From contig JAGWWP010000005.1 of NCBI GenBank assembly GCA_018970325.1, positions 1,594 to 65,593 on the forward strand: a stretch of DNA of 64,000 bases. Reading direction: 5' to 3'. Below, piece after piece: positions 46,257-62,434 of this stretch. The notes under the pieces were generated by a model, which saw only the letters and a program-made list of their open reading frames with translations, ran no database searches and was not told where the DNA came from. Positions within the stretch are counted from its first letter, which is position 1, and each line of letters opens with the position of its first letter. Source of the DNA: Cyanobacteria bacterium REEB446. GTDB taxonomy: Bacteria > Cyanobacteriota > Vampirovibrionia > LMEP-6097. A program made the translations under genes and the position numbers.

Positions 46257-46762
46257 GATTGCATCCCAAAGATTCTGGAAGAAAGTTTTATTTGGGTCTA
46301 AGCGACCTAGTTTTTTCTTTTTATAATAAAAGCGAAAGAAAGGATGGATAAGCAAGAAAAGTAGCCATGAAAATGCAATAACCATGGTTGTCACATAATC
46401 TAAATTAGACTCACTCATAAACCTTCTCCTTATTTTCTGAATGGTAGTACCACTCATCTAGAATGTCAATGCTGCGGTAGATGCAAATGATGCCAACTAA
46501 GCTTATGCTAGAAACTATTATGAATTTCAATATACCAATATCTTCAATCCTATAATTAGCATTAGTTAATTCCATAAAAATCATGCTTGCAAAAGAACTT
46601 AATAACCCAAAGCCAATGTATTGAAGAAGATTAGCCCGATGTTTAATAGATTCTGGAAGATCTTTCATTTAAATTAGCTTCGCAAAAATTAGAAAAAATT
46701 TTTAGGGGTCATTTTTCCTCAGAGTTAAAAACTAGAAAATTTTCCAGACTATAATTAGGACT

Positions 46763-47461: not shown

Positions 47462-48164
47462 CTCTTCCAGTGCTTCAGGTAATTTTGATCAAAATTCACC
47501 AGATCCAGAAAAATTTGCAGTATTACCAGAAGAGATAAAAAAAGGTCTTTCAGAATGGTTCCAAACTGAAGAATTTAAACAATTACCAAAAGAGACAAGA
47601 AATTATTTTTTTAAACGATTCTCGCAAAATGAAAATAAACCACAGCAAAATCTTGAGACACAGACATTCAAAATAGAACAAGATATAAGTGCCTTAAAAG
47701 AAGAGGTTGAAAAATCTAAAAAAACACTTGATGAAAAAATGCAAGAATCTCAAAAAAGACTTGATGAAAAAATTAGAGAATTAGAGCAAAAATTTGAAAA
47801 AACACTTGATAAAAAAATCACAGATCAGCAAACTCAAATTATTGCTCTCTGCGGAATTTTTGTAGCTATCATTGCTTTCGTAACTAATAACGTCACAATT
47901 TTTACTAAAGCAGATAATCTTTATCAAGCATTAGTATTTATGGTTATTTTCTTTATATTAACCGCAGGGATAATTTTAATCAGTTATCAACTATCAAGAC
48001 AAGCAAATAACCAAGTAGATAACAAGGATGTAATCGGAATGCTCATCTTAATCACTGTTATAACCATTTTCTTGATTGTTTTCGCACAGAACTTAGATCA
48101 CATAAAGCTTATATCGAAACAAAAGTTAACTCCACCCCACCTACAACAGATCGTTCTCCAGTAA
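47454..48164 (+). CDS. hypothetical coiled-coil protein with three C-terminal TM helices
   Basis: Ser-rich N-terminus, K/E-rich coiled coil (KTLDEKMQESQKRLDEKIRELEQKFEKTLDKK), then hydrophobic helices. Confidence 0.3.
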   Translation: MSSSSSASGNFDQNSPDPEKFAVLPEEIKKGLSEWFQTEEFKQLPKETRNYFFKRFSQNENKPQQNLETQTFKIEQDISALKEEVEKSKKTLDEKMQESQKRLDEKIRELEQKFEKTLDKKITDQQTQIIALCGIFVAIIAFVTNNVTIFTKADNLYQALVFMVIFFILTAGIILISYQLSRQANNQVDNKDVIGMLILITVITIFLIVFAQNLDHIKLISKQKLTPPHLQQIVLQ

Positions 48165-48214
48165 ATGAACATAAAAAATTACAGCTGAAAGGAAATTGAA
48201 AATATATTGGCGAA

Positions 48215-48370
48215 ACTAGCTCTCAATCTTAAGCTGAGTTTCTAGTGCCTCTAGTTCACGTACTTTCACATGATAGCAGCGGTGTTCAATCCAGAATAGA
48301 CCAATGAGTGCTGGAGCTACAAAAAGAGCTATCTCCAAGATATACTCCCAATCAAGATTTGGTAACTTCA
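48215..48370 (-). CDS. putative small membrane protein (51 aa)
   Basis: ATG preceded by AAGGAG. MKLPNLDWEYILEIALFVAPALIGLFWIEHRCYHVKVRELEALETQLKIES. Below the ORF-track cutoff. Confidence 0.25.
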
Positions 48371-48503
48371 TGAATAACTCCTTTTTCTAATATACTTAAG
48401 CCTCGTAAAATACATTCTATTCCTAGGACAAAAAATAGTCCAGCGATGGCATAGCGATCTAACTTTTCCCCAGCTTAATTCGCACTTTAGTCACCTATTA
48501 ATT

Positions 48504-48537
48504 AATCTGCCATAATATGATTTGGTGAATAATCAAA
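48504..48537 (+). repeat. left copy of a perfect 34-bp direct repeat (AATCTGCCATAATATGATTTGGTGAATAATCAAA) bracketing the hsdRSM-ietAS block
   Basis: Identical 34-mer at 57948-57981. This copy overlaps the hsdR start codon region. Confidence 0.7.
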
Positions 48538-51323
48538 ACCCTGAGCAAAAAACGAGAGACAACATCGATAAGATGCTGGAAACTGCTGGCTGGGTAGTGC
48601 AAGATAAAGATAAAATAGACTGGTCAAATCATAAAGGTATCGCTATTCGAGAGTATTCTACAGATACTGGTCCAGCTGATTATGTTTTATTTATTAATAT
48701 AGATGCTGCCAAATTTCCGATTGGAATAATCGAAGCAAAACCAGAAGATGAGGGTCAAAGAATCAGTATTCATGAGGAACAGGTACTTAGATATGCGGAA
48801 AGCAAGCTCAAATACTGTATCGCTACTGAGCCTATACCTTTTCTCTATATCTCTACGAGCATAAGAACTCTTTTCTTTAATCTTAAAGATCCTAAGCCTC
48901 GTTCTAGAGAGATTTTTAATTTTCATAGACCAGAGACTTTAATAGAATGGTCTCAAGATGAAGGAACCCTAAGATCACGCTTAGAAAATTTACCGCTTTT
49001 ACAGACTGAAGGTTTGCGTGACTGTCAGATTAAAGCGATAAATAATCTTGAGAAATCGTTTAAACAAGCTAAGCCAAAGGCTTTAATCCAGATGGCTACA
49101 GGAAGTGGCAAGACCTTTACTGCTATTACTTTTATTTATCGACTTTTAAAATATGCTAAAGCAAAGAGAATATTGTTTTTAGTTGATACTAAAAACCTCG
49201 GCGAGCAGGCTGAACAAGAGATTAGAAATTATATTCCTCCAGATGATAATAGAACTTTCTCTGAGTTATACACAGTCCAAAGGCTTAAAAATAGTTACGT
49301 TCCACAAGACACGAAGGTTTGCATTAGCACTATACAGAGAATGTACTCTATCTTGAAGGGTGAAGCTTTAGAAGAATCTGCTGAGGATCAGAATCCTAAT
49401 GAGTATGAATTTATAAGTCAAGAAAAAATGAAAGAAGTTATTTATAACTCAAATGCTCCGATTGAAATGTTTGATTTTATTATTATTGATGAATGCCACA
49501 GGTCTATTTATAATCTCTGGAAGCAAGTTCTTGATTATTATGATGCTTTCTTGATTGGTTTAACTGCTACTCCAGACAAAAGAACTTTTGCTTTCTTTAA
49601 TGAAAATGTCGTCAGTGAATATACTCATGAAGAAGCTGTCGCTGATGGCGTAAACGTAGGTTATGACATTTATGTTATTGAAACTGAAATTACTAAACAA
49701 GGCTCGAAAATAAAAGCTAAAGAATATATAGAAAAACGAGATAAGTTATCACGTAAAAAACGCTGGGAGCAGCAAGATGAAGATTTAGAATATAGCTCAA
49801 AGCAGCTTGATAAAGATATAGTAAATCCGAGTCAGATTCGTAATATTATAAAAGCCTTTCGTGATAAGCTATCTGAAATATTTCCTAATCGTAAACAGTC
49901 TAATGATCAAATAGAAGTGCCGAAGACATTAGTTTTCGCTAAAACTGATAGTCATGCTGATGACATTATTTCGATAATTCGGGAGGAGTTCGGAGAAAGA
50001 AACGACTTCTGTAAAAAAATAACTTATAAATCTAAAGAAGACCCTAGCGAAGATCCTAAAAGTATTCTAGCTAGTTTTCGCAATTTATATAATCCAAGAA
50101 TCGCTGTAACAGTAGATATGATCGCTACAGGTACTGATGTTAAGCCGATAGAATGTCTGTTGTTCATGCGTGATGTTAAATCTAGAAACTATTTTGAGCA
50201 GATGAAAGGACGAGGTACGAGAACGCTTGCAGCAGATGATTTAAAACGAATAACACCAAGTGCTAAAACTGGAAAAACGCATTTCGTAATAGTAGATGCA
50301 GTCGGTGTAACTAAATCAGTTAAAACAGATAGTAGGTCACTAGAAAGAAAGAAGACTGTACCATTAAAAGACCTGATGTACAGCATTCTAATGGGTTCTA
50401 AAGATGAAGATGTTTTTCTTTCAGTGGCTAGCAGACTTTCAAGGCTTAATAATGAAATTAGTCCCCAAGAAAAACAAAAATTTCAAGAAATCACTAAGGG
50501 GAAATCTTTAAATACAGTGATACACGAGCTTTTAAATGCATTTGATGCTGATGAGATTGAAATCAAGGCTAGAGAAAGTTTTCAGATAGATTCTCTGAGC
50601 GAACCAAGCGAGGAGCAAAAATCAAAGGCTCAATTAGAGCTAATTAGAATAGCTTCTTCTAGTTTTACTGGGAACTTAAATACTTACATAGAGAATGTAA
50701 GGAGAGAATATGAACAGACTATAGATGTGGTAAATATTGATAAGCTTGAGTTTGCAGGCTGGGATTCACAGGCAAAAGCAGAGAATCATATAAATGAATT
50801 TAAAGATTTTTTAGAAAAACATAAAGATGAGATAATAGCTCTAAGAATCTTTTACAATGAGCCTTATAGATTAAAAGATTTGACTTATAAGATGATAGGA
50901 GAGCTTTATGAAGTTCTTCAGCGAGAAAAACCTCACTTGGCACCGCTATATGTCTATGAAGCTTTTGAAAGGTTTGAAGAAAATAAATCCAATAAACCAG
51001 AGAATCAGCTCACAGCTTTAGTTTCTCTAATCAGAAAGGTTTGCGGCATTGATAAAACCCTTACGGCATTTGATGATGTGGTTAATCGTAATTTTAAAAG
51101 TTGGATTTTCAAGAAACAAGCTGGCTCTTTAAAATTTAATGAAGAACAAATGGACTGGTTAAGAATGATTAAAAGTCATATCACAAGCTCTTTTCATATA
51201 GATAAAGATGATTTTGAATATGCACCATTTGATGCACAAGGTGGTTTAGGAAAAATGCATAAACTTTTTGGGCTGGATGCAGATTCGGTTATTAGTGAGA
51301 TGAATGAGGTATTGGTGGCGTGA
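48522..51323 (+). CDS. hsdR: type I restriction enzyme R subunit
   Basis: N-terminal Mrr-cat-like nuclease region. SF2 helicase motifs I (QMATGSGKTFTA), II (DECHRS) and VI (QMKGRGTR). TTG/GTG start. Confidence 0.9.
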   Translation: MVNNQNPEQKTRDNIDKMLETAGWVVQDKDKIDWSNHKGIAIREYSTDTGPADYVLFINIDAAKFPIGIIEAKPEDEGQRISIHEEQVLRYAESKLKYCIATEPIPFLYISTSIRTLFFNLKDPKPRSREIFNFHRPETLIEWSQDEGTLRSRLENLPLLQTEGLRDCQIKAINNLEKSFKQAKPKALIQMATGSGKTFTAITFIYRLLKYAKAKRILFLVDTKNLGEQAEQEIRNYIPPDDNRTFSELYTVQRLKNSYVPQDTKVCISTIQRMYSILKGEALEESAEDQNPNEYEFISQEKMKEVIYNSNAPIEMFDFIIIDECHRSIYNLWKQVLDYYDAFLIGLTATPDKRTFAFFNENVVSEYTHEEAVADGVNVGYDIYVIETEITKQGSKIKAKEYIEKRDKLSRKKRWEQQDEDLEYSSKQLDKDIVNPSQIRNIIKAFRDKLSEIFPNRKQSNDQIEVPKTLVFAKTDSHADDIISIIREEFGERNDFCKKITYKSKEDPSEDPKSILASFRNLYNPRIAVTVDMIATGTDVKPIECLLFMRDVKSRNYFEQMKGRGTRTLAADDLKRITPSAKTGKTHFVIVDAVGVTKSVKTDSRSLERKKTVPLKDLMYSILMGSKDEDVFLSVASRLSRLNNEISPQEKQKFQEITKGKSLNTVIHELLNAFDADEIEIKARESFQIDSLSEPSEEQKSKAQLELIRIASSSFTGNLNTYIENVRREYEQTIDVVNIDKLEFAGWDSQAKAENHINEFKDFLEKHKDEIIALRIFYNEPYRLKDLTYKMIGELYEVLQREKPHLAPLYVYEAFERFEENKSNKPENQLTALVSLIRKVCGIDKTLTAFDDVVNRNFKSWIFKKQAGSLKFNEEQMDWLRMIKSHITSSFHIDKDDFEYAPFDAQGGLGKMHKLFGLDADSVISEMNEVLVA

Positions 51324-52768
51324 TGGGGCTTATGGTAAGGGATATGACTGAATCATTTCAGTCTCAGATTAATAATTTATGGACAGTTGTTCCATTAGAT
51401 ACAGTTTTGATAAGTCTTGAATCTGGTAAAAGACCGAGGGGGGGAGTTAAAGATATTAAAACTGGCATACCAAGCTTAGGAGGAGAACATTTAAATTCAG
51501 ACGGTGGATTTAAATTTGAAAATATTCGCTATATTCCAGAAGAATTTGCTCTTAATATGCTGAGAGGACAAATTAAACAAGATGATATCTTAATAGTCAA
51601 AGACGGGGCTACTACAGGCAAGGTTTCATTTGTTAATAGAGACTTCCCTTATAGTAACGCGGTTGTCAATGAACATGTATTCATATGTCGCATCTCAAAA
51701 TTCATAGATCCTAAGTTTATTTTTTACTTTCTTTTCAGCGAGACAGGCCAAAAAAGAATACTAGAAAATTTTAAAGGTTCTGCACAAGGTGGAATCAACT
51801 CTTCATTCTCAGCTGAAACATTAATTTCTTTAGCCCCCCTCAAGGAACAAAAACGCATAGTTAATAAAATCGAAGAACTCTTATCAGAATTAGATCACGC
51901 CGTAGAAAGTTTTAAAAAAATACAACAGCAATTAAAAATCTATCGCCAAGCGGTTTTGAAGGCTGCTTTTGAGGGGAAGTTGACGGAGGAATGGAAAAAA
52001 TTTAATTCACAGAACATAAATTTAGATCCTTCTCGTAGTTTTGTCGAAATTAAAAAACTTGGCGATCTTATAGAAGAGCCTAAATATGGTACATCTAAAA
52101 AATGCTCTTATGAAAATGGGAATCTTGGAGTGCTAAGAATACCTAATCTTGTTGATTATAAAATTGACTTAGATGATTTAAAAAAAGCTGAATTTAATGA
52201 ATCAGAGAAAGAAGCTTATTCACTCAAAAAAGGAGACCTCCTTATAATTCGTTCAAATGGTAGCCCATCTTTAGTTGGAACTGCGAGCATTATTGATTCT
52301 CACAGTTCAAAATGTCTCTTCGCTGGATATTTAATACGTCTTCGGTGTTTAAATTCTTTAAATCCTAATTATCTTTTATATTGTTTACATTCATATTCTG
52401 TGAGGAATCAAATTGAACTTCAATCAAGGTCAACGAGTGGAGTTCACAATATTAATTCTCAAGAGATTAAAAGCCTTTTAATTCCCTACTGCTCTCTCGA
52501 AGAACAAAACCAAATAATCCAAGAAATCGAATCCCGCCTATCCATCTGTGATGAACTAGAAAAGACTATAGAACAGAATTTAATTCTAGAAAAATCATTA
52601 CGCCAAAGCATTTTAAAGAAAGCTTTTGAGGGGAAATTAGTCCCACAAGATCCAAATGATGAGCCTGCAGAGCTTTTATTAGAGAAGATTAAGCTCGAAA
52701 AAGAGAAATTAGCTAAATTAACTAATTCAAGCAAAACTAAGACTAAAAGGGAGAAAGTCACAGCATGA
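51320..52768 (+). CDS. hsdS: type I restriction-modification specificity subunit
   Basis: Two target-recognition domains, each followed by the conserved repeat (QAVLKAAFEGKL and QSILKKAFEGKL). ATGA overlap with hsdR and hsdM. Confidence 0.85.
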   Translation: MMGLMVRDMTESFQSQINNLWTVVPLDTVLISLESGKRPRGGVKDIKTGIPSLGGEHLNSDGGFKFENIRYIPEEFALNMLRGQIKQDDILIVKDGATTGKVSFVNRDFPYSNAVVNEHVFICRISKFIDPKFIFYFLFSETGQKRILENFKGSAQGGINSSFSAETLISLAPLKEQKRIVNKIEELLSELDHAVESFKKIQQQLKIYRQAVLKAAFEGKLTEEWKKFNSQNINLDPSRSFVEIKKLGDLIEEPKYGTSKKCSYENGNLGVLRIPNLVDYKIDLDDLKKAEFNESEKEAYSLKKGDLLIIRSNGSPSLVGTASIIDSHSSKCLFAGYLIRLRCLNSLNPNYLLYCLHSYSVRNQIELQSRSTSGVHNINSQEIKSLLIPYCSLEEQNQIIQEIESRLSICDELEKTIEQNLILEKSLRQSILKKAFEGKLVPQDPNDEPAELLLEKIKLEKEKLAKLTNSSKTKTKREKVTA

Positions 52769-54240
52769 ACGTCAGTTCAATCATACAAAAAATCTGGAAT
52801 TACTGTACCGTATTAAGGGACGATGGTTTAAGCTATGGTGACTATCTAGAACAGCTTACCTATCTACTCTTCATCAAGATGGCTGATGAATACTCAAAGC
52901 CTCCTCATAATAGAGAAACTAATATCCCAGAAAAATATAATTGGAAAAGTTTAACTAAGATAAGTGGTTCTGACCTAGAAGTTCATTATGTGGATTTATT
53001 ACTTAATCTAGGCAAAGCTAAAGGCATACTAGGACAGATTTTCACTAAATCGCAGAACAGAATACAAGACCCAGCGAAACTCTATAAACTAATCCAGATG
53101 ATAGATAGTGAAGAATGGGTAATTATGGGAGCTGATGTTAAGGGAGATATCTATGAAGGTCTTTTAGAAAAGAATGCCGAAGACACGAAGAGCGGAGCAG
53201 GGCAGTACTTCACTCCTAGAGCTTTAATTAAAGCCATGGTTGAGTGCATTAGACCTGAACCCATGAACACTATTGCAGATCCAGCTTGTGGTACGGGTGG
53301 ATTTTTTCTTGGAGCCTATGATTTTATAGCTAATAACTATAAACTTGATAAACAGGAAAAGGAGTTCCTAAAAAAACATACTTTTGCTGGTAACGAAATA
53401 GTTGCTAACACTCGCAGACTTGCTTTGATGAATCTCTTTTTACATAATATTGGAGATTTAACGGGAGATTCAGTAATTTTTCCTCAGGATGCTCTTATCG
53501 CAGATAGCGGCCAGCGATTTGATTATGTCCTTGCTAATCCACCATTCGGAAAGAGAAGTAGTATGACTTTCACTAACGATGATGGAGATCAAGAGAAAGA
53601 AGATTTAACTTATAATCGCCAAGATTTTTGGACTACCACTTCTAATAAGCAGTTAAATTTCGTTCAGCATATAAAGACCATACTTAAAACTACAGGTAAG
53701 GCTGCCATCGTAATTCCAGATAATGTTTTATTTGAAGGTGGTGCTGGTGAGATAATTAGAAAAAAATTACTTGAAACCACTGATCTGCACACGATTTTAA
53801 GGCTACCTACAGGTATTTTTTATGCTAATGGAGTTAAGGCAAATGTAATTTTCCTTGATAACAAACCAGCTGCCAAAGAGCCTTGGACTAAAGAAATTTG
53901 GTTTTATGATTATCGGACGAATATTCATCATACGAAGAAAAAAGATCCTCTGCGATTTGAACACTTAAAAGATTTTATTCAGTGTTACAATCCAACCAAT
54001 CCACATCAGCGTAAAGAGACATATTCAGAAATCAATCTAGAGGGCAGATGGCGTAAATTTACTTATAATGAGATCATCTCTAGAGATAAAACTAGTTTAG
54101 ATATTTTCTGGTTAAAAGATAAGAGTTTAACTGACTTAGAGAATCTCCCAGAGCCAGATTTGCTTGCTAATGAAATTATAGAAAATTTAGAGGCAGCCCT
54201 CGGAAGCTTTAAAGATATGGCTAGAATATTAAACTCTTAA
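52765..54240 (+). CDS. hsdM: type I restriction-modification N6-adenine DNA methyltransferase
   Basis: HsdM N-terminal domain. AdoMet motif I (DPACGTGGF) and catalytic NPPFG. Confidence 0.9.
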   Translation: MNVSSIIQKIWNYCTVLRDDGLSYGDYLEQLTYLLFIKMADEYSKPPHNRETNIPEKYNWKSLTKISGSDLEVHYVDLLLNLGKAKGILGQIFTKSQNRIQDPAKLYKLIQMIDSEEWVIMGADVKGDIYEGLLEKNAEDTKSGAGQYFTPRALIKAMVECIRPEPMNTIADPACGTGGFFLGAYDFIANNYKLDKQEKEFLKKHTFAGNEIVANTRRLALMNLFLHNIGDLTGDSVIFPQDALIADSGQRFDYVLANPPFGKRSSMTFTNDDGDQEKEDLTYNRQDFWTTTSNKQLNFVQHIKTILKTTGKAAIVIPDNVLFEGGAGEIIRKKLLETTDLHTILRLPTGIFYANGVKANVIFLDNKPAAKEPWTKEIWFYDYRTNIHHTKKKDPLRFEHLKDFIQCYNPTNPHQRKETYSEINLEGRWRKFTYNEIISRDKTSLDIFWLKDKSLTDLENLPEPDLLANEIIENLEAALGSFKDMARILNS

Positions 54241-56831
54241 GTCCTAGTCCTCGTTCTAGAATTAATATGAGAGTGAATTTCTGTGTAAATATCTATATCT
54301 GAGTCTATCTCTAATGTGATAGCTAATACATACGCAATCACATCAGAGTTTCTTTTTGAGTTCCCTTTTTGAGAACAAACAGAAATCTTTGCTAGATTAT
54401 TGGAGGAGTCTATAGCAAGAATAGCTTTTCCTTTTTTTAGCTCATAAATAGAATGTTTACAGGTATTTAACATTACATTGCCTGCTTGCTCAGAGCTAAT
54501 CTGTTCTTCAAAAGAACCATCCTTACTAATTTTAATATCTAGCTTACTTTGCTGATAATCACTGGTTTCTGGACTAATATCACTAAACCAAACCAAGGTA
54601 GAAATCAATCTTATATTGCTAGACAATGACTGATTTCTAAATTCTGAAGGCAAAGGAATTTCGTAGTCATGCTGAGTCGCAGCAGATATTTTATTACAAG
54701 CAATAAATAACACAGAATGATTAAAAGCACTGATAGATCTTTCAAAATCAGTCTTACCATAGCCATGAAAGCGAGCTAACTCCCTAGGCTTTTTAAAGTT
54801 ACCATCAGAATGATTAGCACTAGCGTTCCGATGTATAAATTGTAAAAAATCAGGATCATGCCAACTAGAGTGTATAAGAAGATTTTTAATCAATAAAGCA
54901 TCATATTCTTTGTCTGGGAATATCTCTGTTGATAAATAATCATTCTCTAAGAGTTGCTCATAGATTCTAATTGCATTATTAGTCGCTAATGCTGTAGCAT
55001 AACTAGTTCCACAGCCTCGTGCCTGTTTATTTAGATCTCCAGATTTAGCAGTAAAAGCATGTTTAAGCCCGAATTTATTACTAGCAGGATTTTCGCTTTC
55101 TAATTTAGAACTAAAGAAAAGCTTTTTATAGACTGAACTCCCTCCTGAAAACAATAGTTCAGGCTTAATAGATTTCTTCACTCCTAAGCCTACTCTAGAA
55201 TAAGCTGCACAATACTTATCATTTCGATATAAAATACCATTTTCTTGATTAGTGATTTTCTTTTCTATTTCAGAGTCGTCGTATTCTGTAGCTCCTATAC
55301 AGAGAGAGTTTACAGATTCTGCGGGTGAAATAATTTTCAGATTATTGAGATCCTTTCTCTTGCTACTTAAGACCACACTAAATTTCTCTTCATCTGAAAG
55401 CCTTATGAACTCTTCTTTATCACAATCTAAAGATAAAGCAGCATTATTACCAGCACTAATTAAAAATAGAACTTTATGTTTATATGATAAAAAATCTATC
55501 ATTTTAGCTAAAGGTGATATTCTTCTTGCTAAGTACGGTCTATAAAGATCTCCTAAAGAAAAATTAATTACTCTAACAGATTCCTTTTCTTTAAAAAGCA
55601 TTTCTACTGCGTCATACACAAGCTTTATAAACAGCTTATCATTTGGGATTATCTCCCTATCACCAGAGGAAAGCATAATTGGACAGTGCAATATTTTAGA
55701 ATTAATCCTCTCATCATTTTTATAAGTACCATTAATAACAATCGAACTCACGGCAGTACCATGAAATCTTTTATCCGCAGGATACTTAGCTTCAAAGTCA
55801 AATAAATCTAGAACATCTATAAAATTTTTAATATCATTGTGATTCTGTAAAGGCATTCCATCTAATATTGCAGCATAAGACTTTTCATATTTAGGTTTAT
55901 GTGTTTTAGATGATTCTAAATCACTATCAGGGCTTTGCTTTCTAAGCATCGCTTGTGGTGAAGGATTAATAAACATCACAGAATCAGCTTTTAAAAGCTG
56001 CATTCCTGTAAAATTAGATTTCTCCTTAAGTTTTAAAATAAGTTCTTTTTTAACAGAAGCTTTTAAGCCATGATAATTAATTTCCTCACAAACAAAGATA
56101 TCTAGGAGCTTTCCACCATCTAATTCAAGTATCTCTTTAATTCTATTTTCGGCTTCTTCTCTTCTATGTGGATCTCTGTGAAACCATAACTCAATCTCGA
56201 TAAAGAAGTCTTCGTGATCCAAATTAAGACCTTCTGTTTGTAAAACCCAGTCTTGAAGCTGCTCTTCATTCTCTATTCGATCATTTTCTGACCATTCTCT
56301 TATGTCTAATAAATATTTAAAGGCATCTCTAAATTTGGTGTAATTCCTTGGTAACTCCTCCCCTTTTTCATATTTTTGCCATAAGCGAATAAAAGTCTTA
56401 AATCCTTTCTCAGTATAGAACACACAGAAAGCTTTACTTTTCCCCACTGTAATTTTATTATTTGACTTTTTATCACAATATTCTAAAAACTCTGGGATTT
56501 CATAATTATCTTTAATTAACTGTGCGAAATATTCACAGCCTTTTATTTTATTAAATGCATTAATTAAATCCTCTAGCTTATCATCTAAAAATTCTAAAAC
56601 TAATACCTTCCCTAAATCATCTCCACTCAATCCAGCTTCATCAGTGACCCTCAGCGTTTCAAAATCTCTTAAGATCGCTTCAGAACGCTCTTTAAACCAA
56701 ATGGCCTGCTTTTCTTTGGATGATAATGTATATTTTTCCTTACCACCACGCCCGCTGCCCTTATAGGCTAACTCAGAATTACTAATAAGATAGATAGGTC
56801 TGCGTCTTTTATTAGTCTTGAGCCTCTCCAT
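54237..56831 (-). CDS. S8 subtilase-family peptidase with ~330-aa uncharacterised N-terminal domain (IetS-like)
   Basis: Catalytic triad contexts AILDGM (Asp), HGTAVSS (His) and GTSYATALA (Ser), plus oxyanion SAGNNA. 11-nt gap from the upstream AAA+ ATPase gene on the same strand. Confidence 0.55.
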   Translation of the reverse strand: MERLKTNKRRRPIYLISNSELAYKGSGRGGKEKYTLSSKEKQAIWFKERSEAILRDFETLRVTDEAGLSGDDLGKVLVLEFLDDKLEDLINAFNKIKGCEYFAQLIKDNYEIPEFLEYCDKKSNNKITVGKSKAFCVFYTEKGFKTFIRLWQKYEKGEELPRNYTKFRDAFKYLLDIREWSENDRIENEEQLQDWVLQTEGLNLDHEDFFIEIELWFHRDPHRREEAENRIKEILELDGGKLLDIFVCEEINYHGLKASVKKELILKLKEKSNFTGMQLLKADSVMFINPSPQAMLRKQSPDSDLESSKTHKPKYEKSYAAILDGMPLQNHNDIKNFIDVLDLFDFEAKYPADKRFHGTAVSSIVINGTYKNDERINSKILHCPIMLSSGDREIIPNDKLFIKLVYDAVEMLFKEKESVRVINFSLGDLYRPYLARRISPLAKMIDFLSYKHKVLFLISAGNNAALSLDCDKEEFIRLSDEEKFSVVLSSKRKDLNNLKIISPAESVNSLCIGATEYDDSEIEKKITNQENGILYRNDKYCAAYSRVGLGVKKSIKPELLFSGGSSVYKKLFFSSKLESENPASNKFGLKHAFTAKSGDLNKQARGCGTSYATALATNNAIRIYEQLLENDYLSTEIFPDKEYDALLIKNLLIHSSWHDPDFLQFIHRNASANHSDGNFKKPRELARFHGYGKTDFERSISAFNHSVLFIACNKISAATQHDYEIPLPSEFRNQSLSSNIRLISTLVWFSDISPETSDYQQSKLDIKISKDGSFEEQISSEQAGNVMLNTCKHSIYELKKGKAILAIDSSNNLAKISVCSQKGNSKRNSDVIAYVLAITLEIDSDIDIYTEIHSHINSRTRTRT

Positions 56832-56842
56832 AATTACAAATT

Positions 56843-57826
56843 TTAAAATTTAGCTTTCACAAAATTCTTAGATTGTTTAATAATATCTATAAAAGCTTTA
56901 ATATCTTTCTTAGACAGAGATTGATTCTTATTCAGTTTAATAAAATAACTACGTCTAACACTATCACAGAACTCTTTTAAATCCGAGAAAGAAAAATTAT
57001 TCAGCATTCTGCTCAAATAGCTAAATTGATACAAAAAATCAATGTCAAAACGCTTAGAATAAGATTCAAGATATTTTATAATTTCTAATTCTGATGGGGC
57101 ATCTAACTCTAATGTAATCTGAAACCTCCTAGTCATAGCGTGATCTAGAGCTTCAGGATGATTAGTAGCAGCAATCAGAATCGTATTAGATGATAATTTA
57201 TCAATATTAGTAAGTAACAGATTAACTATTCTTTTAACTTCCCCAACTTCATTCTTGTCACCACGTGATTTAGAAACGGTATCAAATTCATCAAAGAATA
57301 AAACACAATTGGAATTATATATTGAGGAAAATAATTTTTTAATGCGACTAAGGCTTTCACCTAAAAGGCTGTTAATGAGGACTTCATAATTTACATGATA
57401 TAAAGGTACTGCCAACTCATAAGCCATAGCCTCAGCCAAAGAAGTTTTTCCATTACCTGGTTTGCCTACTAAAAGTATTTTATTTCTAGGATTAATACCA
57501 TTGGACCTTAAATAGTCTTTCATAGAATACTCTTCAAGAAAGTCAGAGACAATTTGCAAATTAATATTAGAGAGTATTAATTCACCAAGCTCAATCTCAG
57601 GTTTAATAACAGTAAAAAAATCACTATTTACACCAGTTTGATTTTCAAGGAACTCAAACTTTTTTGTTTCTGTTACATTTAGTGCTTTTTTTAGACGTTC
57701 CGCAAGTGTATGATGCTGTTTAAACTCTTCCTCTTTGATTATTGACTGTGCGATTTCAACAAATAAATCAAAGTTCTTTTCAGAACCAGCTTTAATAAGA
57801 TTTGTCAATAGATCTGTTCGTGCCAT
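56843..57826 (-). CDS. AAA+ ATPase (classic CDC48/FtsH-type AAA domain; IetA-like)
   Basis: Walker A GKPGNGKTS, Walker B VLFFDEFD and second region of homology ATNHPEALDHAMTRRF. Confidence 0.6.
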   Translation of the reverse strand: MARTDLLTNLIKAGSEKNFDLFVEIAQSIIKEEEFKQHHTLAERLKKALNVTETKKFEFLENQTGVNSDFFTVIKPEIELGELILSNINLQIVSDFLEEYSMKDYLRSNGINPRNKILLVGKPGNGKTSLAEAMAYELAVPLYHVNYEVLINSLLGESLSRIKKLFSSIYNSNCVLFFDEFDTVSKSRGDKNEVGEVKRIVNLLLTNIDKLSSNTILIAATNHPEALDHAMTRRFQITLELDAPSELEIIKYLESYSKRFDIDFLYQFSYLSRMLNNFSFSDLKEFCDSVRRSYFIKLNKNQSLSKKDIKAFIDIIKQSKNFVKAKF

Positions 57827-57947
57827 AAGTACATGAATATATTTAGTATAACTTTAGATAGGTAAAATATGAGGCTTTCTTTATGCCTATATCGTATTTT
57901 ACTTATACTCAAGGGAGGGACTTATTAATAGAATTAGCTCATCTTCC

Positions 57948-57981
57948 AATCTGCCATAATATGATTTGGTGAATAATCAAA
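57948..57981 (+). repeat. right copy of the 34-bp direct repeat, 37 nt upstream of kdsC
   Basis: Perfect match to 48504-48537. Contains -10-like CATAAT/TAATAT. Confidence 0.7.
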
Positions 57982-58017
57982 GCTCAAAATTAAGCTATTA
58001 AATCACAAAAGAAAACT

Positions 58018-58539
58018 ATGTTTGAAAACATCTCAGAAAGACTAAAAGAACGTGCTCAGAAAATAAAAATGATCGGCTTCGACGTAGACGGCGTTCTGAC
58101 AGATGGTTCGCTTTATATAGCTAAAGATGGTGAATCTGTAAAAAGATTCTTCGCCTTAGATGGACATGGCATAAAACTCGCTCAGAACTTCGGTTTAACT
58201 GTGGTTATAGTCTCTGCTCGTAAAAGTGAGCAGACTATCAATCGCTGTACTGATCTGGGTGTCAAAGAAATTCACACGGGTGTAGAAAACAAACTGAGCT
58301 GCGTTCAAGATTTACTAAAACGCTATGAACTTAATTATGATGAGTTCGCCTTTATCGGTGATGACAGCATAGATGTTCCAGTCTTAGAACTAGTGGGCTT
58401 AGCTGCCTGTCCAGCAGATTCACATTATTCAGTATTTAAGCATATTCATTACATTACTGAGCGTAAAGGCGGACAGGGAGCGGCTAGGGAATTTATTGAT
58501 TTGATTCTTGCCATGCAGGGGAAGATACCAGTAGCTTAA
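58018..58539 (+). CDS. kdsC: 3-deoxy-D-manno-octulosonate 8-phosphate phosphatase (HAD-IIIA)
   Basis: HAD motif I FDVDGVLTDG. Motifs GDDSIDVPV and GGQGAAREF match KdsC. Confidence 0.8.
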   Translation: MFENISERLKERAQKIKMIGFDVDGVLTDGSLYIAKDGESVKRFFALDGHGIKLAQNFGLTVVIVSARKSEQTINRCTDLGVKEIHTGVENKLSCVQDLLKRYELNYDEFAFIGDDSIDVPVLELVGLAACPADSHYSVFKHIHYITERKGGQGAAREFIDLILAMQGKIPVA

Positions 58540-59126
58540 TCACACTCTAGCATTGAAATTAAAAGATTTAATTCTGGTATCGTTTTACGCTTTTCGTCGA
58601 GAATCTCCTTTGTTAGATTATCTCGATAGAAACTTAGCTCATCTTTACCTTTAATAATTCCACCTACAGCATTTTTTAAAGTCTTTAGGTCACTAGGTAG
58701 TGCTTTACCCAGCACTTTTAAAATGAAAGACTCTACAGATCGTGGCTGAGAGACAATTAAAGTAGGTCTCTTTTTATTCTTTGCATTAAAATTAGTTTGC
58801 AGTTTAGCCAAAGGGGTATTATTAAAGCTTTCTATGCGTTCCTCTGATATATTCCAAGCTTGAGCAAGTGATTTTTTATTTTTAATTTCTTTATCCTCGT
58901 CTAGCCAAACAAAACATCTATCACGATCATTATTACAAATCGCTGTATTAATTAGTGTATCTGCGTCACCGCCACCACTACAACGACCTTTATCAAGACT
59001 GACGGAAATAGATATACTATTTTTATCTAAGTAAAGTTCTTCTAATATTTTAAAAAAGAATCTCTCCCTTTGTCCTTCTAGGACAGCGTAGAGGGTAATT
59101 TTACGTTTACGTTGCTTTCTCCCCAC
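58536..59126 (-). CDS. RloB-like / DUF4276-like small protein (TOPRIM-like), partner of upstream AAA_21 ATPase (AbiLii-like)
   Basis: 196 aa. N-terminal ITLYAVLEGQRERFFF resembles the (I/V)xCEGxTE...YF signature of RloB/DUF4276. 2-nt gap to the upstream ATPase gene. Confidence 0.45.
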   Translation of the reverse strand: MGRKQRKRKITLYAVLEGQRERFFFKILEELYLDKNSISISVSLDKGRCSGGGDADTLINTAICNNDRDRCFVWLDEDKEIKNKKSLAQAWNISEERIESFNNTPLAKLQTNFNAKNKKRPTLIVSQPRSVESFILKVLGKALPSDLKTLKNAVGGIIKGKDELSFYRDNLTKEILDEKRKTIPELNLLISMLECD

Positions 59127-59128
59127 GC

Positions 59129-60352
59129 TTAAAACCCTCTATTTAACCAGTCTATATCAGGTACACCACCGTAAGTGCCGCTTAAATATTTTTGAGCATA
59201 GTTTTCATCATTACGAACTCCTTCTACTTCATCTAAACGATATATCTCAGTCGTCAAATCCTCTTTATTTTTTTCAACAATAAATATCTGCGTTTTAGTA
59301 AGTTCTTTCAGTAATAGCGCTTGATGTGTACTGAAGAGGATTTGAGCATTATATTTATTTATTTTTTTATTCATAAATAGAGAAAGTATTTTCTGAATCA
59401 AGTGGGGATGTATATTTGTCTCTATTTCATCAATCACGATAAGTCCACCTTCTTCTAGGACAGGGATTATTTTTAAAAATAAATTAAACGCCGTTCTAGT
59501 CCCATGAGATTCATCATGGAGGAATAGATCAAATTCAGCTCCAGTGAGTGTTTTATGTCTAAGGCAGAGTATCTTTTTATTCGTATCTTGTAGGTCTAGG
59601 AAAAAATGATCGCCTATCCCTATATCTAAACTCTTCATAAGTTTAATAGTCTTATCCTCTAATTTCGAATCTTGATTTTGATTTTGGATTAAGTGACGTT
59701 CAGCAGCAGATGGATAGGAGCTAATACTAGACTGGTTAATAGATAAATAAGAGCGCTTAAAAAAAAGGATTTTGGGTAAATATCCAGTATTTAAAAGGCT
59801 AGAAAAAATTGGGACAGTTAAACAACGACTTAAAAAACGCTCTTTATCTGATTTATTTAAGTTAAGTTCTGTTGAAATACTCAGATCAAGCTTTTCACCA
59901 TGTCTTGATAAGCTGAAAATTTTTTTAAATCTAGTATTAGTTTTTTTCTCCAATACTTCATTAAGAATGAATGGTCCATTCAAAACGAGTTTGTAACGAT
60001 ATAAATCTTGTTCATTATAAAACTCTATTGTGAAGCAAGACTCTTTATCTTGATGTAAAGCATGAGCTTTGTATCCTCCTATGCCTTGAGAGTAATCATA
60101 AGAAGAACCGATTAAAGGTGGTACTTTAAGATACGAATCATTTATCCAAGAAATTAAAAATGATAGCCCCTTAAGTATATTAGATTTACCAGAGCCATTG
60201 GCTCCCACCAAACCTGCGATAAGAGTAAAATTCTGTGACCCCACTACAGAAAAGGATTCATTTAAACAGTCTTTTTTAGAAACCTCTAAGGATACGCTCT
60301 GTGGCTCAAGCCCAATACTATAAAAATTAGACACTGTAAAAGATTTGAGCAT
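59129..60352 (-). CDS. AAA_21-type (ABC/OLD-like) ATPase (AbiLi-like)
   Basis: Walker A LVGANGSGKSN near the N-terminus. Walker B/D-loop-like LIVIDEIETNIHPHL near the C-terminus with a long helical insert between, as in AAA_21 abortive-infection ATPases. Confidence 0.65.
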   Translation of the reverse strand: MLKSFTVSNFYSIGLEPQSVSLEVSKKDCLNESFSVVGSQNFTLIAGLVGANGSGKSNILKGLSFLISWINDSYLKVPPLIGSSYDYSQGIGGYKAHALHQDKESCFTIEFYNEQDLYRYKLVLNGPFILNEVLEKKTNTRFKKIFSLSRHGEKLDLSISTELNLNKSDKERFLSRCLTVPIFSSLLNTGYLPKILFFKRSYLSINQSSISSYPSAAERHLIQNQNQDSKLEDKTIKLMKSLDIGIGDHFFLDLQDTNKKILCLRHKTLTGAEFDLFLHDESHGTRTAFNLFLKIIPVLEEGGLIVIDEIETNIHPHLIQKILSLFMNKKINKYNAQILFSTHQALLLKELTKTQIFIVEKNKEDLTTEIYRLDEVEGVRNDENYAQKYLSGTYGGVPDIDWLNRGF

Positions 60353-60458: not shown

Positions 60459-60998
60459 ATGCAAATCAAAGGTAAAGTTCTAAAAGTCCTAAAGTCAAAC
60501 ATAGACACCGATCAAATCATCCCAGCAAGACACCTTACAGGGATTAGCAAAACTGGTTTAGGGAAATTTTTATTTGAAGATCTACCGAATAATCCACTAG
60601 ATGATATTGAGCATGAGGGTGCGAAAATTATTCTTACTTTAGAAAACTTCGGCTGCGGCTCTTCACGTGAGCATGCGGTTTGGTCTATTTTAGACAGAGG
60701 CTTTAATGCTGTTATCGCTGTAAATTTCGCAAGAATTTTTGAAGAGAACTGCTATAACAATGGCGTAGTGCCGATTAAGCTAAGTGAAGCAGAAATACAA
60801 GAAATAGATACAGCTTTAACTAATGATACTGAAGTTGAAATAGATGTCATAGAACAGGTTTTAAGTGTCGGAGCTAAAACTTATAAATTCAATTTAGATG
60901 AATTAAAAAAAGAATTTATTCTTAAAGGTGGCTTTATGAAGTTTTTAGATGCTAAAGTACCTAAAATTAAAGAGTGGGCTTTAGCTGAGAAGAGTTAA
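60459..60998 (+). CDS. leuD: 3-isopropylmalate dehydratase small subunit-like (LeuD / aconitase swivel domain)
   Basis: ILTLENFGCGSSREHA and NFARIF match the LeuD signature. No leuC is adjacent. Confidence 0.7.
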   Translation: MQIKGKVLKVLKSNIDTDQIIPARHLTGISKTGLGKFLFEDLPNNPLDDIEHEGAKIILTLENFGCGSSREHAVWSILDRGFNAVIAVNFARIFEENCYNNGVVPIKLSEAEIQEIDTALTNDTEVEIDVIEQVLSVGAKTYKFNLDELKKEFILKGGFMKFLDAKVPKIKEWALAEKS

Positions 60999-61769
60999 AA
61001 AATTATCTAGGCTTAAAGTCCTTAGCTCTAATGAATCCTGCACAAAATTTTCTAAATCAGAATGCACTTCCTTAAAATTAGTTTCTTCAAGACGCTTTAT
61101 TAAGCATGTTTGAAGACCTGCCATATCTAGTTTAGATTTTTTACCAGTACTTTGAGCGATAGCATTATTTAGTAAGACTAAATTAGGTTTAACTTTTTTA
61201 GTTAAATACCACATTAAATCATAGTAGTCTCTACCCTTGGTATATTTACGATGTAAAATAGCATGAAGCTTACCAGCATATAAACTAGGTAAATCATAAT
61301 GCTTAATGCCAAAGAAACTCTTTTGTATAGTGTATTCTAAGTTTGCTCCTTTTGGTGGATTCATATCCAATTCGAGTTTTATATATAATTTCTGTTCAGG
61401 TAGAGAAGTTAAGCCTAGCTCATAGAGAAGCTTTGCAAATTTTAATTGAGCTATGTAAACATTATTCTTAGTCTTTGAATTTATTTTCAGATTAATATTT
61501 AATAGTAAAAAACGCTTGCAGAGCTGGTCTAACATATTTATGAAATCAAAATCTTTTGCATCAATTAAACTAAAATCTAAATCTTCTGAAAAGCGATTTA
61601 AATCATATAAAATTCTCAGAGCAGTCCCACCAACAAAAGCAATATTCTTTGAAAATCCCTGCTGATCTATAATTTTCAGGGTTTGAATTTGAATAATCTC
61701 CCTTAGATAATTAAACTTTTCTTCAGTAGTAGAATATTTTTCTATTTGATTTTTTAATAAACTAAGCAT
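60981..61769 (-). CDS. AbiEii/AbiGii-family nucleotidyltransferase toxin (DUF1814)
   Basis: IAFVGGTALRILYDLNRFSEDLDFSL is the hallmark GG-TAL...RFSEDLDF motif of type IV TA nucleotidyltransferases. Confidence 0.75.
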   Translation of the reverse strand: MLSLLKNQIEKYSTTEEKFNYLREIIQIQTLKIIDQQGFSKNIAFVGGTALRILYDLNRFSEDLDFSLIDAKDFDFINMLDQLCKRFLLLNINLKINSKTKNNVYIAQLKFAKLLYELGLTSLPEQKLYIKLELDMNPPKGANLEYTIQKSFFGIKHYDLPSLYAGKLHAILHRKYTKGRDYYDLMWYLTKKVKPNLVLLNNAIAQSTGKKSKLDMAGLQTCLIKRLEETNFKEVHSDLENFVQDSLELRTLSLDNFLTLLS

Positions 61770-62397
61770 TTTTTAAAATCCTTTTTAAAACCACAATAGC
61801 CTGAGAGATTTTTTTCATATTAAATAAGCTGTCTAATTTCTTTAGTCGTGAGGCTTTCAAAATTTCCAGATTCTGTAATCTTAAATTTTCTTCAAAAAAA
61901 TCTTCATCAATGTTCTGATTTGCTTTAACTTTAAAGTAAATATAATCTAGAAGAGCTTTTTCAGGATAGGCAATTTTATAAGCATTACCAAATTCATCTA
62001 TTTGATGAATAAAATAGTCAAATAGGCTGGGTTTGATATGTTTGTAATTAAAGCTCGTTAAGTCATTTGTAAAAGTTTTAGTTTTACTAGTACTAACTGA
62101 ACTCACTTGAAAAACCCGCTCAGGGATTAATCTATAAAAACTCATAGCAGATTCTAAACTAATATATGAATTATCACCGTAGAGCAGCGAAGCCACATAA
62201 AAATTTGAAAATAATTTATTTTTCTCTAAACCCAAATAAGCATATAAACCTTTCTTTAACTGCATAACATAACCCTGTTGAATCCAGTTCTGAATCTGCC
62301 TGCGTAAAGTTTCTCGATCATAGCCAAGCAACTCCATGCTCTGCATAGTAAAAATGCGATTTTTTACGCTTAATCGGTGAAAATCTTCGAACTTCAT
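61762..62397 (-). CDS. AbiEi-like antitoxin / transcriptional regulator
   Basis: 8-nt overlap with the toxin gene. N-terminal winged-helix-like region (ETLRRQIQNWIQQGYVMQLKKGLYA). The track start (62415) is a TTG; the ATG at 62395-62397 is the likelier start. Confidence 0.55.
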   Translation of the reverse strand: MKFEDFHRLSVKNRIFTMQSMELLGYDRETLRRQIQNWIQQGYVMQLKKGLYAYLGLEKNKLFSNFYVASLLYGDNSYISLESAMSFYRLIPERVFQVSSVSTSKTKTFTNDLTSFNYKHIKPSLFDYFIHQIDEFGNAYKIAYPEKALLDYIYFKVKANQNIDEDFFEENLRLQNLEILKASRLKKLDSLFNMKKISQAIVVLKRILKNA

Positions 62398-62400
62398 TAT

Positions 62401-62434
62401 TTCCGTAACGGGCAATAATATTCCCGTTATGGAA
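62401..62434. promoter_or_regulatory. 12-bp-arm inverted repeat (TTCCGTAACGGG-N10-CCCGTTATGGAA) at the abiEi 5' end: candidate autoregulatory operator
   Basis: Near-perfect palindrome, one G-T mismatch, immediately upstream of the abiEi ATG. Confidence 0.45.

What the first reader, a model, noticed from the sequence alone, without database searches (positions are those of the whole stretch)
54237..57826. Two-gene AAA+ ATPase / S8 subtilase module resembling the ietAS anti-phage system, with a large novel N-terminal domain on the protease
A 327-aa classic AAA ATPase (Walker A GKPGNGKTS, Walker B FFDEFD, SRH) is followed 11 nt later by an 864-aa protein. Its C-terminal ~530 aa form an S8 peptidase with all catalytic contexts (D in AILDGM, H in HGTAVSS, S in GTSYATALA, N in SAGNNA). 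Its N-terminal ~330 aa have no recognisable motifs. The pair sits convergent to a type I R-M operon inside a repeat-bounded island. The ATPase-then-subtilase order matches the ietA/ietS system described in Gao et al. 2020. The long N-terminal extension may be a sensor or effector-targeting domain and could define a new variant.
Basis: partly seen in the sequence, partly recalled or inferred. Interest (0 to 1): 0.7.

Follow-up and report, generated by a model that had tools for sequence, protein, structure and literature searches.

The report
Ordinary IetAS ATPase–protease defence pair
The two genes are a real and intact AAA+ ATPase plus subtilisin-like protease pair of the already catalogued IetAS anti-phage/toxin–antitoxin family, and the "novel" N-terminal part of the protease is the standard N-terminal part of a large known IetS subfamily, so this is an ordinary new member.

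Summary
The pair is convergent with hsdRSM, and a perfect 34-nt direct repeat brackets the block.

The IetAS reading is strongly supported. PADLOC IetA scores 2.9e-102. PADLOC IetS scores 4.8e-186 and covers residues 11-862.

The "large novel N-terminal domain / new variant" reading is not supported. That IetS model already includes the N-terminus. Residues 1-330 alone find 734 cluster representatives. Most of the best 150 are ~850-aa proteins matched at their own N-termini, and ten sampled ones are all IetS. The N-terminal key residues are near-invariant in 114 relatives.

The N-terminal part models as a disordered tail followed by two ferredoxin-like units, with only generic fold matches. 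Every relative whose upstream side could be read has the ATPase immediately upstream or fused, in mobile or defence settings. A ~97%-identical strain carries the R-M operon but lacks ietAS.

The likely function is an abortive-infection/toxin-antitoxin module, with the protease as toxin and the ATPase as ATP-dependent antitoxin. The mechanism is inferred from literature on relatives. Verdict: new member of a known kind, low interest.

The parts
56843..57826 (-). ietA: 327-aa classic-clade AAA+ ATPase. It has a ~100-aa helical N-terminal part, Walker A K127, Walker B D179/E180, pore-loop-like LLGE at 154-157, sensor-1 N222 and Arg fingers R233/R234.
   Evidence: Pfam AAA 1.2e-30. PADLOC IetA PDLC04232 2.9e-102 over residues 1-303. 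Best solved relatives are p97/Cdc48 D2 at 1.6e-45. 31% identity, E 4e-45, to the pTiC58 ATPase ATU_RS23410.
54237..56831 (-). ietS: 864-aa cytoplasmic S8 subtilase, the presumed toxin/effector.
56742..56831 (-). IetS residues 1-30: basic N-terminal tail predicted to be disordered. It is a degenerate copy of the family motif (E/D)(R/K)PLLxFP...R.K..GG.
   Evidence: pLDDT about 30. Motif conservation in 114 full-length relatives.
55962..56717 (-). IetS residues 39-290: family-wide N-terminal module. It consists of a long helix and then two beta-alpha-beta-beta-alpha-beta (ferredoxin-like) units at 75-179 and 208-290. Near-invariant residues are V78, E80, W151, R178, W180, D184, R185, E212, E214, L215, G240 and H254.
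54732..55889 (-). IetS residues ~315-700: S8 catalytic domain with D324, H357, N462 and S610.
   Evidence: All four residues are conserved in 114 of 114 relatives.
54240..54716 (-). IetS residues ~706-864: C-terminal all-beta domain plus a terminal helix. This part is shared with pTiC58 IetS.
   Evidence: Secondary structure of the model. BLASTP alignment to pTiC58 IetS spans residues 420-856.
48504..48537 (+). Left copy of the perfect 34-nt direct repeat. It contains the start codon and first codons of hsdR.
   Evidence: The same junction is present in L007, L014 and L015.
57948..57981 (+). Right copy of the 34-nt direct repeat. It lies 122 nt upstream of ietA and 36 nt upstream of the HAD gene.
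   Evidence: It is absent from L014, which also lacks ietAS.
48522..54240 (+). Type I R-M operon hsdR-hsdS-hsdM, convergent with ietS.
   Evidence: Pfam ResIII/EcoEI_R_C, Methylase_S and N6_Mtase/HsdM_N. It is co-linear with ietAS on all metagenome contigs that carry the identical IetS.
54192..58006 (.). Segment present in the window but replaced by 58 nt in the ~97%-identical contig L014. It holds ietS, ietA, their upstream spacer and the right repeat, so ietAS is a presence/absence polymorphism.
   Evidence: blastn breakpoints. Sequences and ORFs of L014.

Best explanation
This is an intact IetAS module of the subfamily already modelled in PADLOC as PDLC04232 (IetA) and PDLC04233 (IetS). It is carried as accessory DNA in the chromosome of an uncultured low-GC proteobacterium, in a patch that also holds a type I R-M system, an AbiL-like pair and AbiE.

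Shown here: IetA is a classic-clade AAA+ ATPase with all ATPase motifs. IetS is a cytoplasmic S8 protease with an intact D-H-N-S set. IetS also has a family-wide N-terminal module (a disordered tail plus two ferredoxin-like units) and a C-terminal beta domain.

Inferred from published work on relatives: IetS is a toxic protease, and IetA neutralises it in an ATP-dependent way. A phage protein or process releases that control. IetS then cleaves cellular or phage proteins, and the infected cell stops growing (abortive infection).

My own inference, not shown: IetA works as a remodeller on IetS, possibly by engaging its conserved disordered N-terminal tail, much as TRIP13 holds CBASS HORMA proteins off. 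The propeptide-like ferredoxin units may take part in autoinhibition or trigger sensing.
For: Family assignment: PADLOC IetA 2.9e-102 and IetS 4.8e-186, both essentially full length. The genes are co-directional with an 11-nt gap.

Catalytic residues are intact and are conserved in 114 of 114 relatives.

The N-terminal module is family-wide.

The ATPase sits immediately upstream, or is fused, in every relative whose upstream side was readable: P0002, P0004, P0014, P0010, P0009, the P0017 fusion, Shewanella plasmid H1, the R. rhizogenes pTi and pTiC58. P0013 starts 350 nt from its contig end, so its upstream gene is cut.

The neighbours of these relatives are transposases, Tn7-like TnsD/E, AAA_21+DUF4276, YhaV/PrlF, PIN and STAND-like ATPases (the same calls).

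ietAS is absent from a ~97%-identical strain that keeps the R-M operon.

IetS has no signal peptide or TM segment.

IetA is closest to p97/Cdc48-type unfoldases and weakly matches PADLOC TRIP13 at 1.2e-15.

Literature: in ietAS the protease is the toxin and the ATPase the antitoxin; an ietA mutant could not be cloned; protease activity is needed for defence; the anti-phage mechanism is unknown (PMC13069673). The B. cereus ietAS acts by abortive infection and is triggered by SPbeta yosG (bioRxiv 10.1101/2022.08.27.505566).
Against: No experiment exists for this locus or, as far as I could find, for this subfamily.

The scores against NCBIfam's equivalogs of the validated Gao-type proteins are far below cutoff: 196 vs 510 and 88 vs 900.

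The founding pTiC58 IetS aligns only over residues 420-856 at 20% identity, and its N-terminus is not detectably related.

The nearest relatives are one protein at 70% identity and then <=33%.

The N-terminal tail motif is degenerate in the window protein, which weakens the tail-engagement idea for this member.

I could not inspect model coordinates to see whether the N-terminal units cover the active site.
Confidence: 0.8

Rival explanations
1. The pair acts mainly as an addiction (toxin-antitoxin) module that stabilises the DNA segment carrying it, here the R-M/ietAS block. This is what was described for pTiC58. It need not have a dedicated anti-phage role.
For: ietAS was first described as a plasmid-stabilising TA system (PMC13069673, citing Yamamoto 2009). 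93 plasmids carry relatives, mostly rhizobial. The pair travels with the R-M operon on all contigs carrying the identical IetS. It lies between 34-nt direct repeats.
Against: This reading is not exclusive of defence, since many TA modules are abortive-infection systems. Relatives were shown to protect against phages and to be triggered by a phage gene. The location is chromosomal, among AbiL-like and AbiE genes. A close strain has lost ietAS, or never had it, while keeping the R-M operon.
Confidence: 0.12
2. This is a new IetAS variant whose protease has gained a novel N-terminal sensor or targeting domain.
For: The local Pfam-A copy has no hit on residues 1-350. No similarity was detected to the N-terminus of pTiC58 IetS. 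The lineage is divergent: 70% identity to one relative, then <=33%.
Against: The PADLOC IetS model covers residues 11-862. 734 representatives share the N-terminal region, and most of the best 150 are ~850-aa proteins matched at their N-termini. Ten of ten sampled hits are full-length IetS. The key residues are near-invariant. Pfam PF27210 'Y4kK_2nd' already describes part of the region.
Confidence: 0.03
3. This is a housekeeping or secreted protease system: an AAA+ chaperone that matures or feeds a subtilase for protein turnover or export.
For: The AAA+/protease pairing superficially resembles ATP-dependent proteases. IetA is closest to Cdc48/FtsH-type unfoldases. Propeptide-like ferredoxin units precede the catalytic domain.
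Against: There is no signal peptide or TM segment. No secretion or maturation genes appear in any of about ten contexts examined. The distribution is patchy and linked to mobile elements, and ietAS is present or absent between ~97%-identical strains. Published toxicity of the protease is counteracted by the ATPase.
Confidence: 0.03

Closest known systems
IetAS as catalogued in PADLOC-DB v2 (IetA PDLC04232 / IetS PDLC04233 subfamily)
   Same: Both proteins match these models over essentially their full length (2.9e-102 and 4.8e-186). The gene order and spacing are the same. The domain layout is the same, including the N-terminal module. Ten of ten relatives found with the N-terminus alone match the same model.
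   Different: It is a divergent lineage within the subfamily, at about 25-33% identity to most members. Its N-terminal tail motif is degenerate. I found no experimental test of this subfamily.
Gao et al. 2020 ietAS (NCBIfam IteA NF042959 / IteS NF042956) and the B. cereus m1293 homologue
   Same: Both are AAA+ ATPase plus S8 protease pairs. The profile of the validated protease aligns from its position 121 to window residue 166, so part of the N-terminal region is shared. The expected behaviour is abortive infection, with protease activity required.
   Different: Scores are far below the equivalog cutoffs: 196 vs 510 and 88 vs 900. This is a different subfamily, so function is transferred by family-level homology only.
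pTiC58 ietA/ietS toxin-antitoxin pair (ATU_RS23410/ATU_RS23415)
   Same: The two-gene layout and sizes are the same: 328 + 836 aa with a 3-nt gap. IetA is 31% identical, E 4e-45. The C-terminal half of IetS is homologous.
   Different: The N-terminal ~300 aa of the two proteases are not detectably related (hhalign probability 3.6%). The pTiC58 pair is plasmid-borne, whereas this one is chromosomal.
ietHAS (Liu-DS4), an IetAS variant with an SNF2 helicase
   Same: It shares the core ATPase and protease (PMC13069673).
   Different: No helicase gene is attached here. The neighbouring HsdR belongs to a complete type I R-M operon that also occurs without ietAS in L014.
CBASS TRIP13-HORMA control (works-like analogy only)
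   Same: In both, an AAA+ remodeller acts as a negative regulator of an immune effector pathway. IetA weakly matches the PADLOC TRIP13 models at 1.2e-15. IetS has a conserved disordered N-terminal tail that could be a handle.
   Different: There is no HORMA protein, cyclase or nucleotide signalling here. IetA is a classic-clade AAA closest to p97/Cdc48. The analogy is inference only.
Subtilase pro-domains (I9-type propeptides, POIA1)

Membership tests
IetAS (PADLOC family definition) | An AAA+ ATPase that matches an IetA profile | tested here: met
   PDLC04232 scores 2.9e-102, residues 1-303 against profile 1-305/330. Pfam AAA scores 1.2e-30.
IetAS (PADLOC family definition) | An S8 serine protease that matches an IetS profile | tested here: met
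IetAS (PADLOC family definition) | The two genes are adjacent and co-directional, with the ATPase first | tested here: met
   The gap is 11 nt and both genes are on the minus strand. The same order, or a fusion, is seen in every relative whose upstream side was readable. The PADLOC program itself was not run.
IetAS (PADLOC family definition) | Intact ATPase motifs and protease catalytic residues | tested here: met
   Walker A K127, Walker B D179/E180, N222 and R233/R234 in IetA; D324, H357, N462 and S610 in IetS. The protease residues are conserved in 114 of 114 relatives.
IetAS (PADLOC family definition) | Protease toxicity neutralised by the ATPase, and protection against phage | not testable with these tools
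   Known only from relatives in the literature.
Gao-type IteA/IteS equivalogs (NCBIfam NF042959, NF042956) | Score at or above the curated equivalog cutoff | tested here: not met
   IteA scores 196.4 bits against a cutoff of 510. IteS scores 87.9 bits against a cutoff of 900. The pair is related but not equivalent.
pTiC58 IetAS (founding toxin-antitoxin pair) | Homology of the ATPase | tested here: met
   31% identity over 280 aa, E 4e-45.
pTiC58 IetAS (founding toxin-antitoxin pair) | Full-length homology of the protease, including its N-terminal region | tested here: not met
   Only residues 420-856 align, at 20% identity and E 4e-8. The N-terminal profile against the pTiC58 N-terminus gives hhalign probability 3.6%.
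Secreted subtilases with a cleavable I9 propeptide | Signal peptide, and a propeptide of the I9 family | tested here: not met
   The N-terminus is basic and hydrophilic, and the maximum KD(19) is 1.26. There is no Pfam propeptide hit. Only a generic ferredoxin-like fold resemblance was found.
CBASS TRIP13/HORMA regulators | A TRIP13-type ATPase together with a HORMA protein and a CD-NTase | tested here: not met
   The TRIP13 profile scores only 1.2e-15 against 2.9e-102 for IetA. No HORMA or cyclase genes are among the neighbours.

The most novel reading that the evidence does not exclude
The family-wide N-terminal part of IetS may be the control element of the whole system. It consists of a disordered, conserved tail plus two ferredoxin-like units with near-invariant E80, R178, W180, D184-R185, E212-x-E214 and H254. 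In this reading it is a built-in propeptide-like inhibitor and/or phage-trigger sensor. The IetA hexamer would keep it in the 'off' state by engaging the tail, as TRIP13 does with HORMA proteins. If that is right, this well-conserved yet divergent member would help define the first mechanistic model for IetAS, whose mode of action is still unknown.
Probability: 0.15. Interest if true: 0.5.

Novelty: new member of a known kind. Interest (0 to 1): 0.15.

Why it matters
It adds little on its own, because current defence-system HMM libraries would label this pair automatically. Its modest value has three parts.

First, it corrects the idea that the long N-terminus is new. It is a hallmark of a large IetS subfamily, with strikingly invariant residues and a conserved disordered tail.

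Second, IetAS still has no known mechanism and no solved structure. The domain map given here (tail, two ferredoxin-like units, S8 core, beta domain) offers concrete mutants to test.

Third, the locus shows strain-level gain or loss of ietAS next to a type I R-M operon, within a chromosomal patch of Abi genes, in an uncultured bacterium.

Tried and rejected
- The search for related loci with the 16-sequence alignment failed because no stretch was conserved enough.
- A second homologous-protein run with the alignment returned only the same 17 proteins.
- The sigma-70 promoter and terminator scan of 54000-58100 was no better than shuffles.
- Rfam found only three tRNAs in the window.
- A PDB sequence search with IetS found nothing at E<0.01, so there is no solved close relative.
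- The Yamamoto 2009 paper is not held under either its PubMed or its PMC id. The original toxin-antitoxin description is therefore cited second-hand from PMC13069673.
- The afdb50 fold library was unavailable.
- I asked whether the two 9479-bp Logan contigs indicate a circular form. Rejected as evidence: they begin and end 30 nt inside the repeat, which is what a k=31 graph break gives.
- I asked whether the ~340-aa hits are stand-alone N-terminal-domain proteins. Rejected: they run into the catalytic Asp motif and then end in unrelated tails, and L020/L021 show a gap followed by a further ORF. They are disrupted ietS genes.
- I asked whether the type I R-M operon and ietAS are an obligatory unit. 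Rejected: L014 has the R-M operon without ietAS.
- No integrase or recombinase gene was found between 39 and 64 kb.
Full report
**Observation.** The two ORFs exist exactly as described.
- ietA is 56843-57826 (−), 327 aa. ietS is 54237-56831 (−), 864 aa. They are separated by 11 nt.
- In IetA: Walker A 121-129 (K127), Walker B 177-182 (D179/E180), sensor-1 N222 and Arg fingers R233/R234.
- In IetS: D324 (AILDGM), H357 (HGTAVSS), N462 (SAGNNA) and S610 (GTSYATALA).
- Pfam gives AAA at 1.2e-30 and Peptidase_S8 at 9e-17 over residues 351-668. It gives nothing on the first ~350 residues.
- The upstream operon is a complete type I R-M system: hsdR 48522-51323, hsdS 51320-52768 and hsdM 52765-54240. 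It is convergent with ietS, and the ORF ends overlap by 4 nt.
- A perfect 34-nt direct repeat (AATCTGCCATAATATGATTTGGTGAATAATCAAA) lies at 48504-48537 and 57948-57981. None was found in 100 shuffles. It brackets exactly hsdRSM plus ietAS.

**What it is.** Against PADLOC-DB the ATPase matches IetA model PDLC04232 at 2.9e-102 over its whole length.
- The protease matches IetS model PDLC04233 at 4.8e-186, residues 11-862 against profile positions 4-850 of 855.
- NCBIfam's equivalog models for the experimentally validated Gao-type proteins hit, but far below their cutoffs: IteA 196 vs 510 bits and IteS 88 vs 900 bits. The IteS alignment starts at profile position 121 against residue 166.
- The window pair is thus a different subfamily of the same family.

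**Is the N-terminus new?** No.
- A 16-sequence alignment of full-length relatives shows the N-terminal 320 residues aligned throughout. Invariant positions are L77, V78, E80, W151, F171, L174, R185, E212, E214, L215, G240 and H254.
- I searched residues 1-330 alone against 1.84 billion cluster representatives. This gave 734 hits at E<=1e-3 and 450 at E<=1e-10. Of the 149 listed relatives, 100 are >=800 aa, with the match at their own residues ~5-320.
- Ten sampled hits all match PDLC04233 end to end, at 1e-268 or better.
- In 114 full-length relatives the catalytic D/H/N/S are conserved in 114 of 114. The N-terminal residues V78, E80, W151, R178, W180, D184, R185, E212, E214, L215, G240 and H254 are conserved in 107-114 of 114.
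- The pre-computed annotations of the protein collection list a newer Pfam family, PF27210 'Y4kK_2nd'. It is listed on a 99%-identical fragment and, faintly, on the window protein itself.

**Relation to the founding pair.**
- The founding pTiC58 pair has the same layout and size: ATU_RS23410 (328 aa) and ATU_RS23415 (836 aa).
- Its ATPase is 31% identical to the window's (E 4e-45).
- Its protease aligns only over residues 420-856 (20% identity, E 4e-8). Its N-terminus is not detectably related to the window's N-terminal profile (hhalign probability 3.6%).
- So IetS proteases generally carry a long N-terminal region. That region differs between subfamilies, and the window's version belongs to a populous subfamily that is already modelled.

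**Anatomy from structure prediction.**
- The full-length model is moderately confident and compact (mean pLDDT 71.9, pTM 0.81). An N-terminal-only model agrees with it (pLDDT 70.8).
- The layout is:
  - a disordered basic tail (1-30);
  - a long helix (39-60);
  - two beta-alpha-beta-beta-alpha-beta units (75-179 and 208-290);
  - a poorly predicted linker;
  - the S8 core (~315-700);
  - a C-terminal beta domain (706-842) with a final helix.
- A propeptide-like role is therefore a lead, not a result.
- IetS has no signal peptide or membrane segment. No solved structure is related to it by sequence at E<0.01.
- IetA is closest to the p97/Cdc48 D2 domain (1.6e-45). That places it among substrate-threading classic AAA proteins. 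It keeps a pore-loop-like LLGE where relatives have FMGE or YLGE.
- The family has a conserved tail motif, (E/D)(R/K)PLLxFP...R.K..GG...P..RQ..R. It is degenerate in the window protein.

**Context of relatives.**
- The identical IetS occurs on seven metagenome contigs, always with ietA and hsdMSR.
- In relatives at 25-70% identity, a 322-365-aa AAA gene lies directly upstream on the same strand wherever the upstream side is readable. One relative is a natural ATPase-protease fusion of 1166 aa. For P0013 the upstream gene is cut by the contig end.
- The neighbours are DDE and IS91 transposases, an integrase, AAA_21+DUF4276, YhaV/PrlF, PIN, UvrD-like helicases and STAND-like ATPases.
- On a Shewanella plasmid the pair follows Tn7-like tnsD/tnsE.
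- 93 plasmids, mostly rhizobial, carry relatives. These include a R. rhizogenes pTi.
- None of the contexts contains secretion or protease-maturation genes.

**The local setting.**
- The window is chromosomal. lpxC, ruvX, a SpoU methylase, tRNA genes and a release factor are nearby. GC content is about 35%.
- The only species-level genome holding the 34-mer is 'MAG: Proteobacteria bacterium isolate WB4_1_1465'.
- To the right of ietA lie a small HAD hydrolase gene, an AbiLi/AbiLii-like pair (AbiLi 1.5e-67), a LeuD-like gene and an AbiEi/AbiEii pair (2e-43 and 6e-70).
- A metagenome contig, L014, is 95-97% identical in the flanks. It has the left 34-mer and hsdRSM, followed directly by the HAD gene and the LeuD-like gene. 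In it, ietS, ietA, the right 34-mer and the AbiL-like pair are all missing. Window 54192-58006 is replaced by 58 nt.
- So ietAS is a presence/absence polymorphism between close strains, as expected of an accessory defence or addiction module. It is also not obligatorily coupled to the R-M system.
- It remains open how the block arose. One possibility is integration of a circular hsdRSM-ietAS element at a 34-bp site, followed by deletion in L014. The other is replacement by recombination. No integrase lies nearby. The 9479-bp Logan contigs merely break inside the repeat.

**How it most likely works.**
- Shown here: an intact classic AAA+ ATPase and an intact cytoplasmic subtilase that are always paired.
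- From the literature on relatives:
  - The protease is the toxin and the ATPase the antitoxin.
  - An ietA mutant could not be cloned.
  - Protease activity is required for defence, and the anti-phage mechanism is unknown (PMC13069673).
  - The B. cereus system causes abortive infection and is triggered by the SPbeta gene yosG (bioRxiv 10.1101/2022.08.27.505566).
- My inference: IetA continuously keeps IetS inactive using ATP, perhaps by pulling on its disordered N-terminal tail. A phage trigger interrupts this. IetS then cleaves essential proteins and growth stops.
- The invariant charged residues of the ferredoxin-like units are candidates for the autoinhibitory or sensing surface.
- I put about 0.9 on family membership, about 0.6-0.7 on an anti-phage abortive role in this organism, and about 0.15-0.3 on the specific control mechanism.

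**Verdict.** The IetAS interpretation is right, and the claim of a novel N-terminal domain or new variant is wrong. This is a new, divergent member of a known kind and of low interest. Its only wider relevance is that IetAS as a family still lacks a mechanism and a structure.

Noticed in passing
window 48504-48537 and 57948-57981; L014 (OGWJ01000280.1) 620-7820: A perfect 34-nt direct repeat brackets hsdRSM plus ietAS. The left copy holds the hsdR start codon. A 95-97%-identical metagenome contig has hsdRSM at the same site but lacks ietAS, the right repeat and the AbiL-like pair. The origin of the block (excisable element or recombination) is unresolved, and no integrase lies nearby.
   Followed up: partly
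window 58536-60352 (-): An AbiLi-like ATPase (407 aa; PADLOC 1.5e-67; Pfam AAA_21) has a 196-aa partner that matches AbiLii only weakly (1e-4). The pair is inserted between a HAD hydrolase gene and a LeuD-like gene and is absent from L014. L007 carries an 81%-identical stretch of the ATPase gene beside tRNA-Met instead.
   Followed up: partly
window 60981-62415 (-): An AbiEii (262 aa, 5.8e-70) and AbiEi (217 aa, 1.7e-43) pair lies next to a release-factor gene. Together with the type I R-M system, ietAS and the AbiL-like pair, this makes four defence-type modules within 14 kb, interleaved with core genes.
   Followed up: no
L011 7174-10674 (protein P0017): A natural fusion of the IetA-type ATPase and the IetS-type protease in one 1166-aa protein. 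It sits beside IS91-type transposase, integrase, YhaV/PrlF and PIN genes. This supports the idea that the two proteins act on each other.
   Followed up: partly
L020 1040-2065 and L021 986-2011 (protein P0023); also P0057 and P0133: Several ~340-aa relatives consist of the IetS N-terminus and stop shortly after the catalytic Asp motif, ending in unrelated tails. In L020/L021 a 630-nt gap and a further ORF follow. These look like ietS genes inactivated by frameshift, as might be expected for a toxic protease.
   Followed up: partly
IetS residues 10-45 (window 56697-56804): The family has a conserved motif in a predicted disordered tail: (E/D)(R/K)PLLxFP...R.K..GG...P..RQ..R, with P12 in 94, Q42 in 107 and R45 in 96 of 114 relatives. 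The window protein has a degenerate version (RRPIYLIS ... Q42, W45). Its role is unknown.
   Followed up: partly
window 51320-52768 versus L014 3540-5024: The hsdS genes of the two close strains share only the central and C-terminal conserved stretches. Their target-recognition domains differ, which implies different R-M specificities at the same locus.
   Followed up: no
window 46256-48406; L007 and L015: The ~2-kb stretch left of the R-M operon holds two ORFs of 232 and 236 aa with no family match. One of them contains three 31-nt near-repeats at 47710-47818. In related contigs this stretch is replaced by other genes, making it a second variable spot.
   Followed up: no
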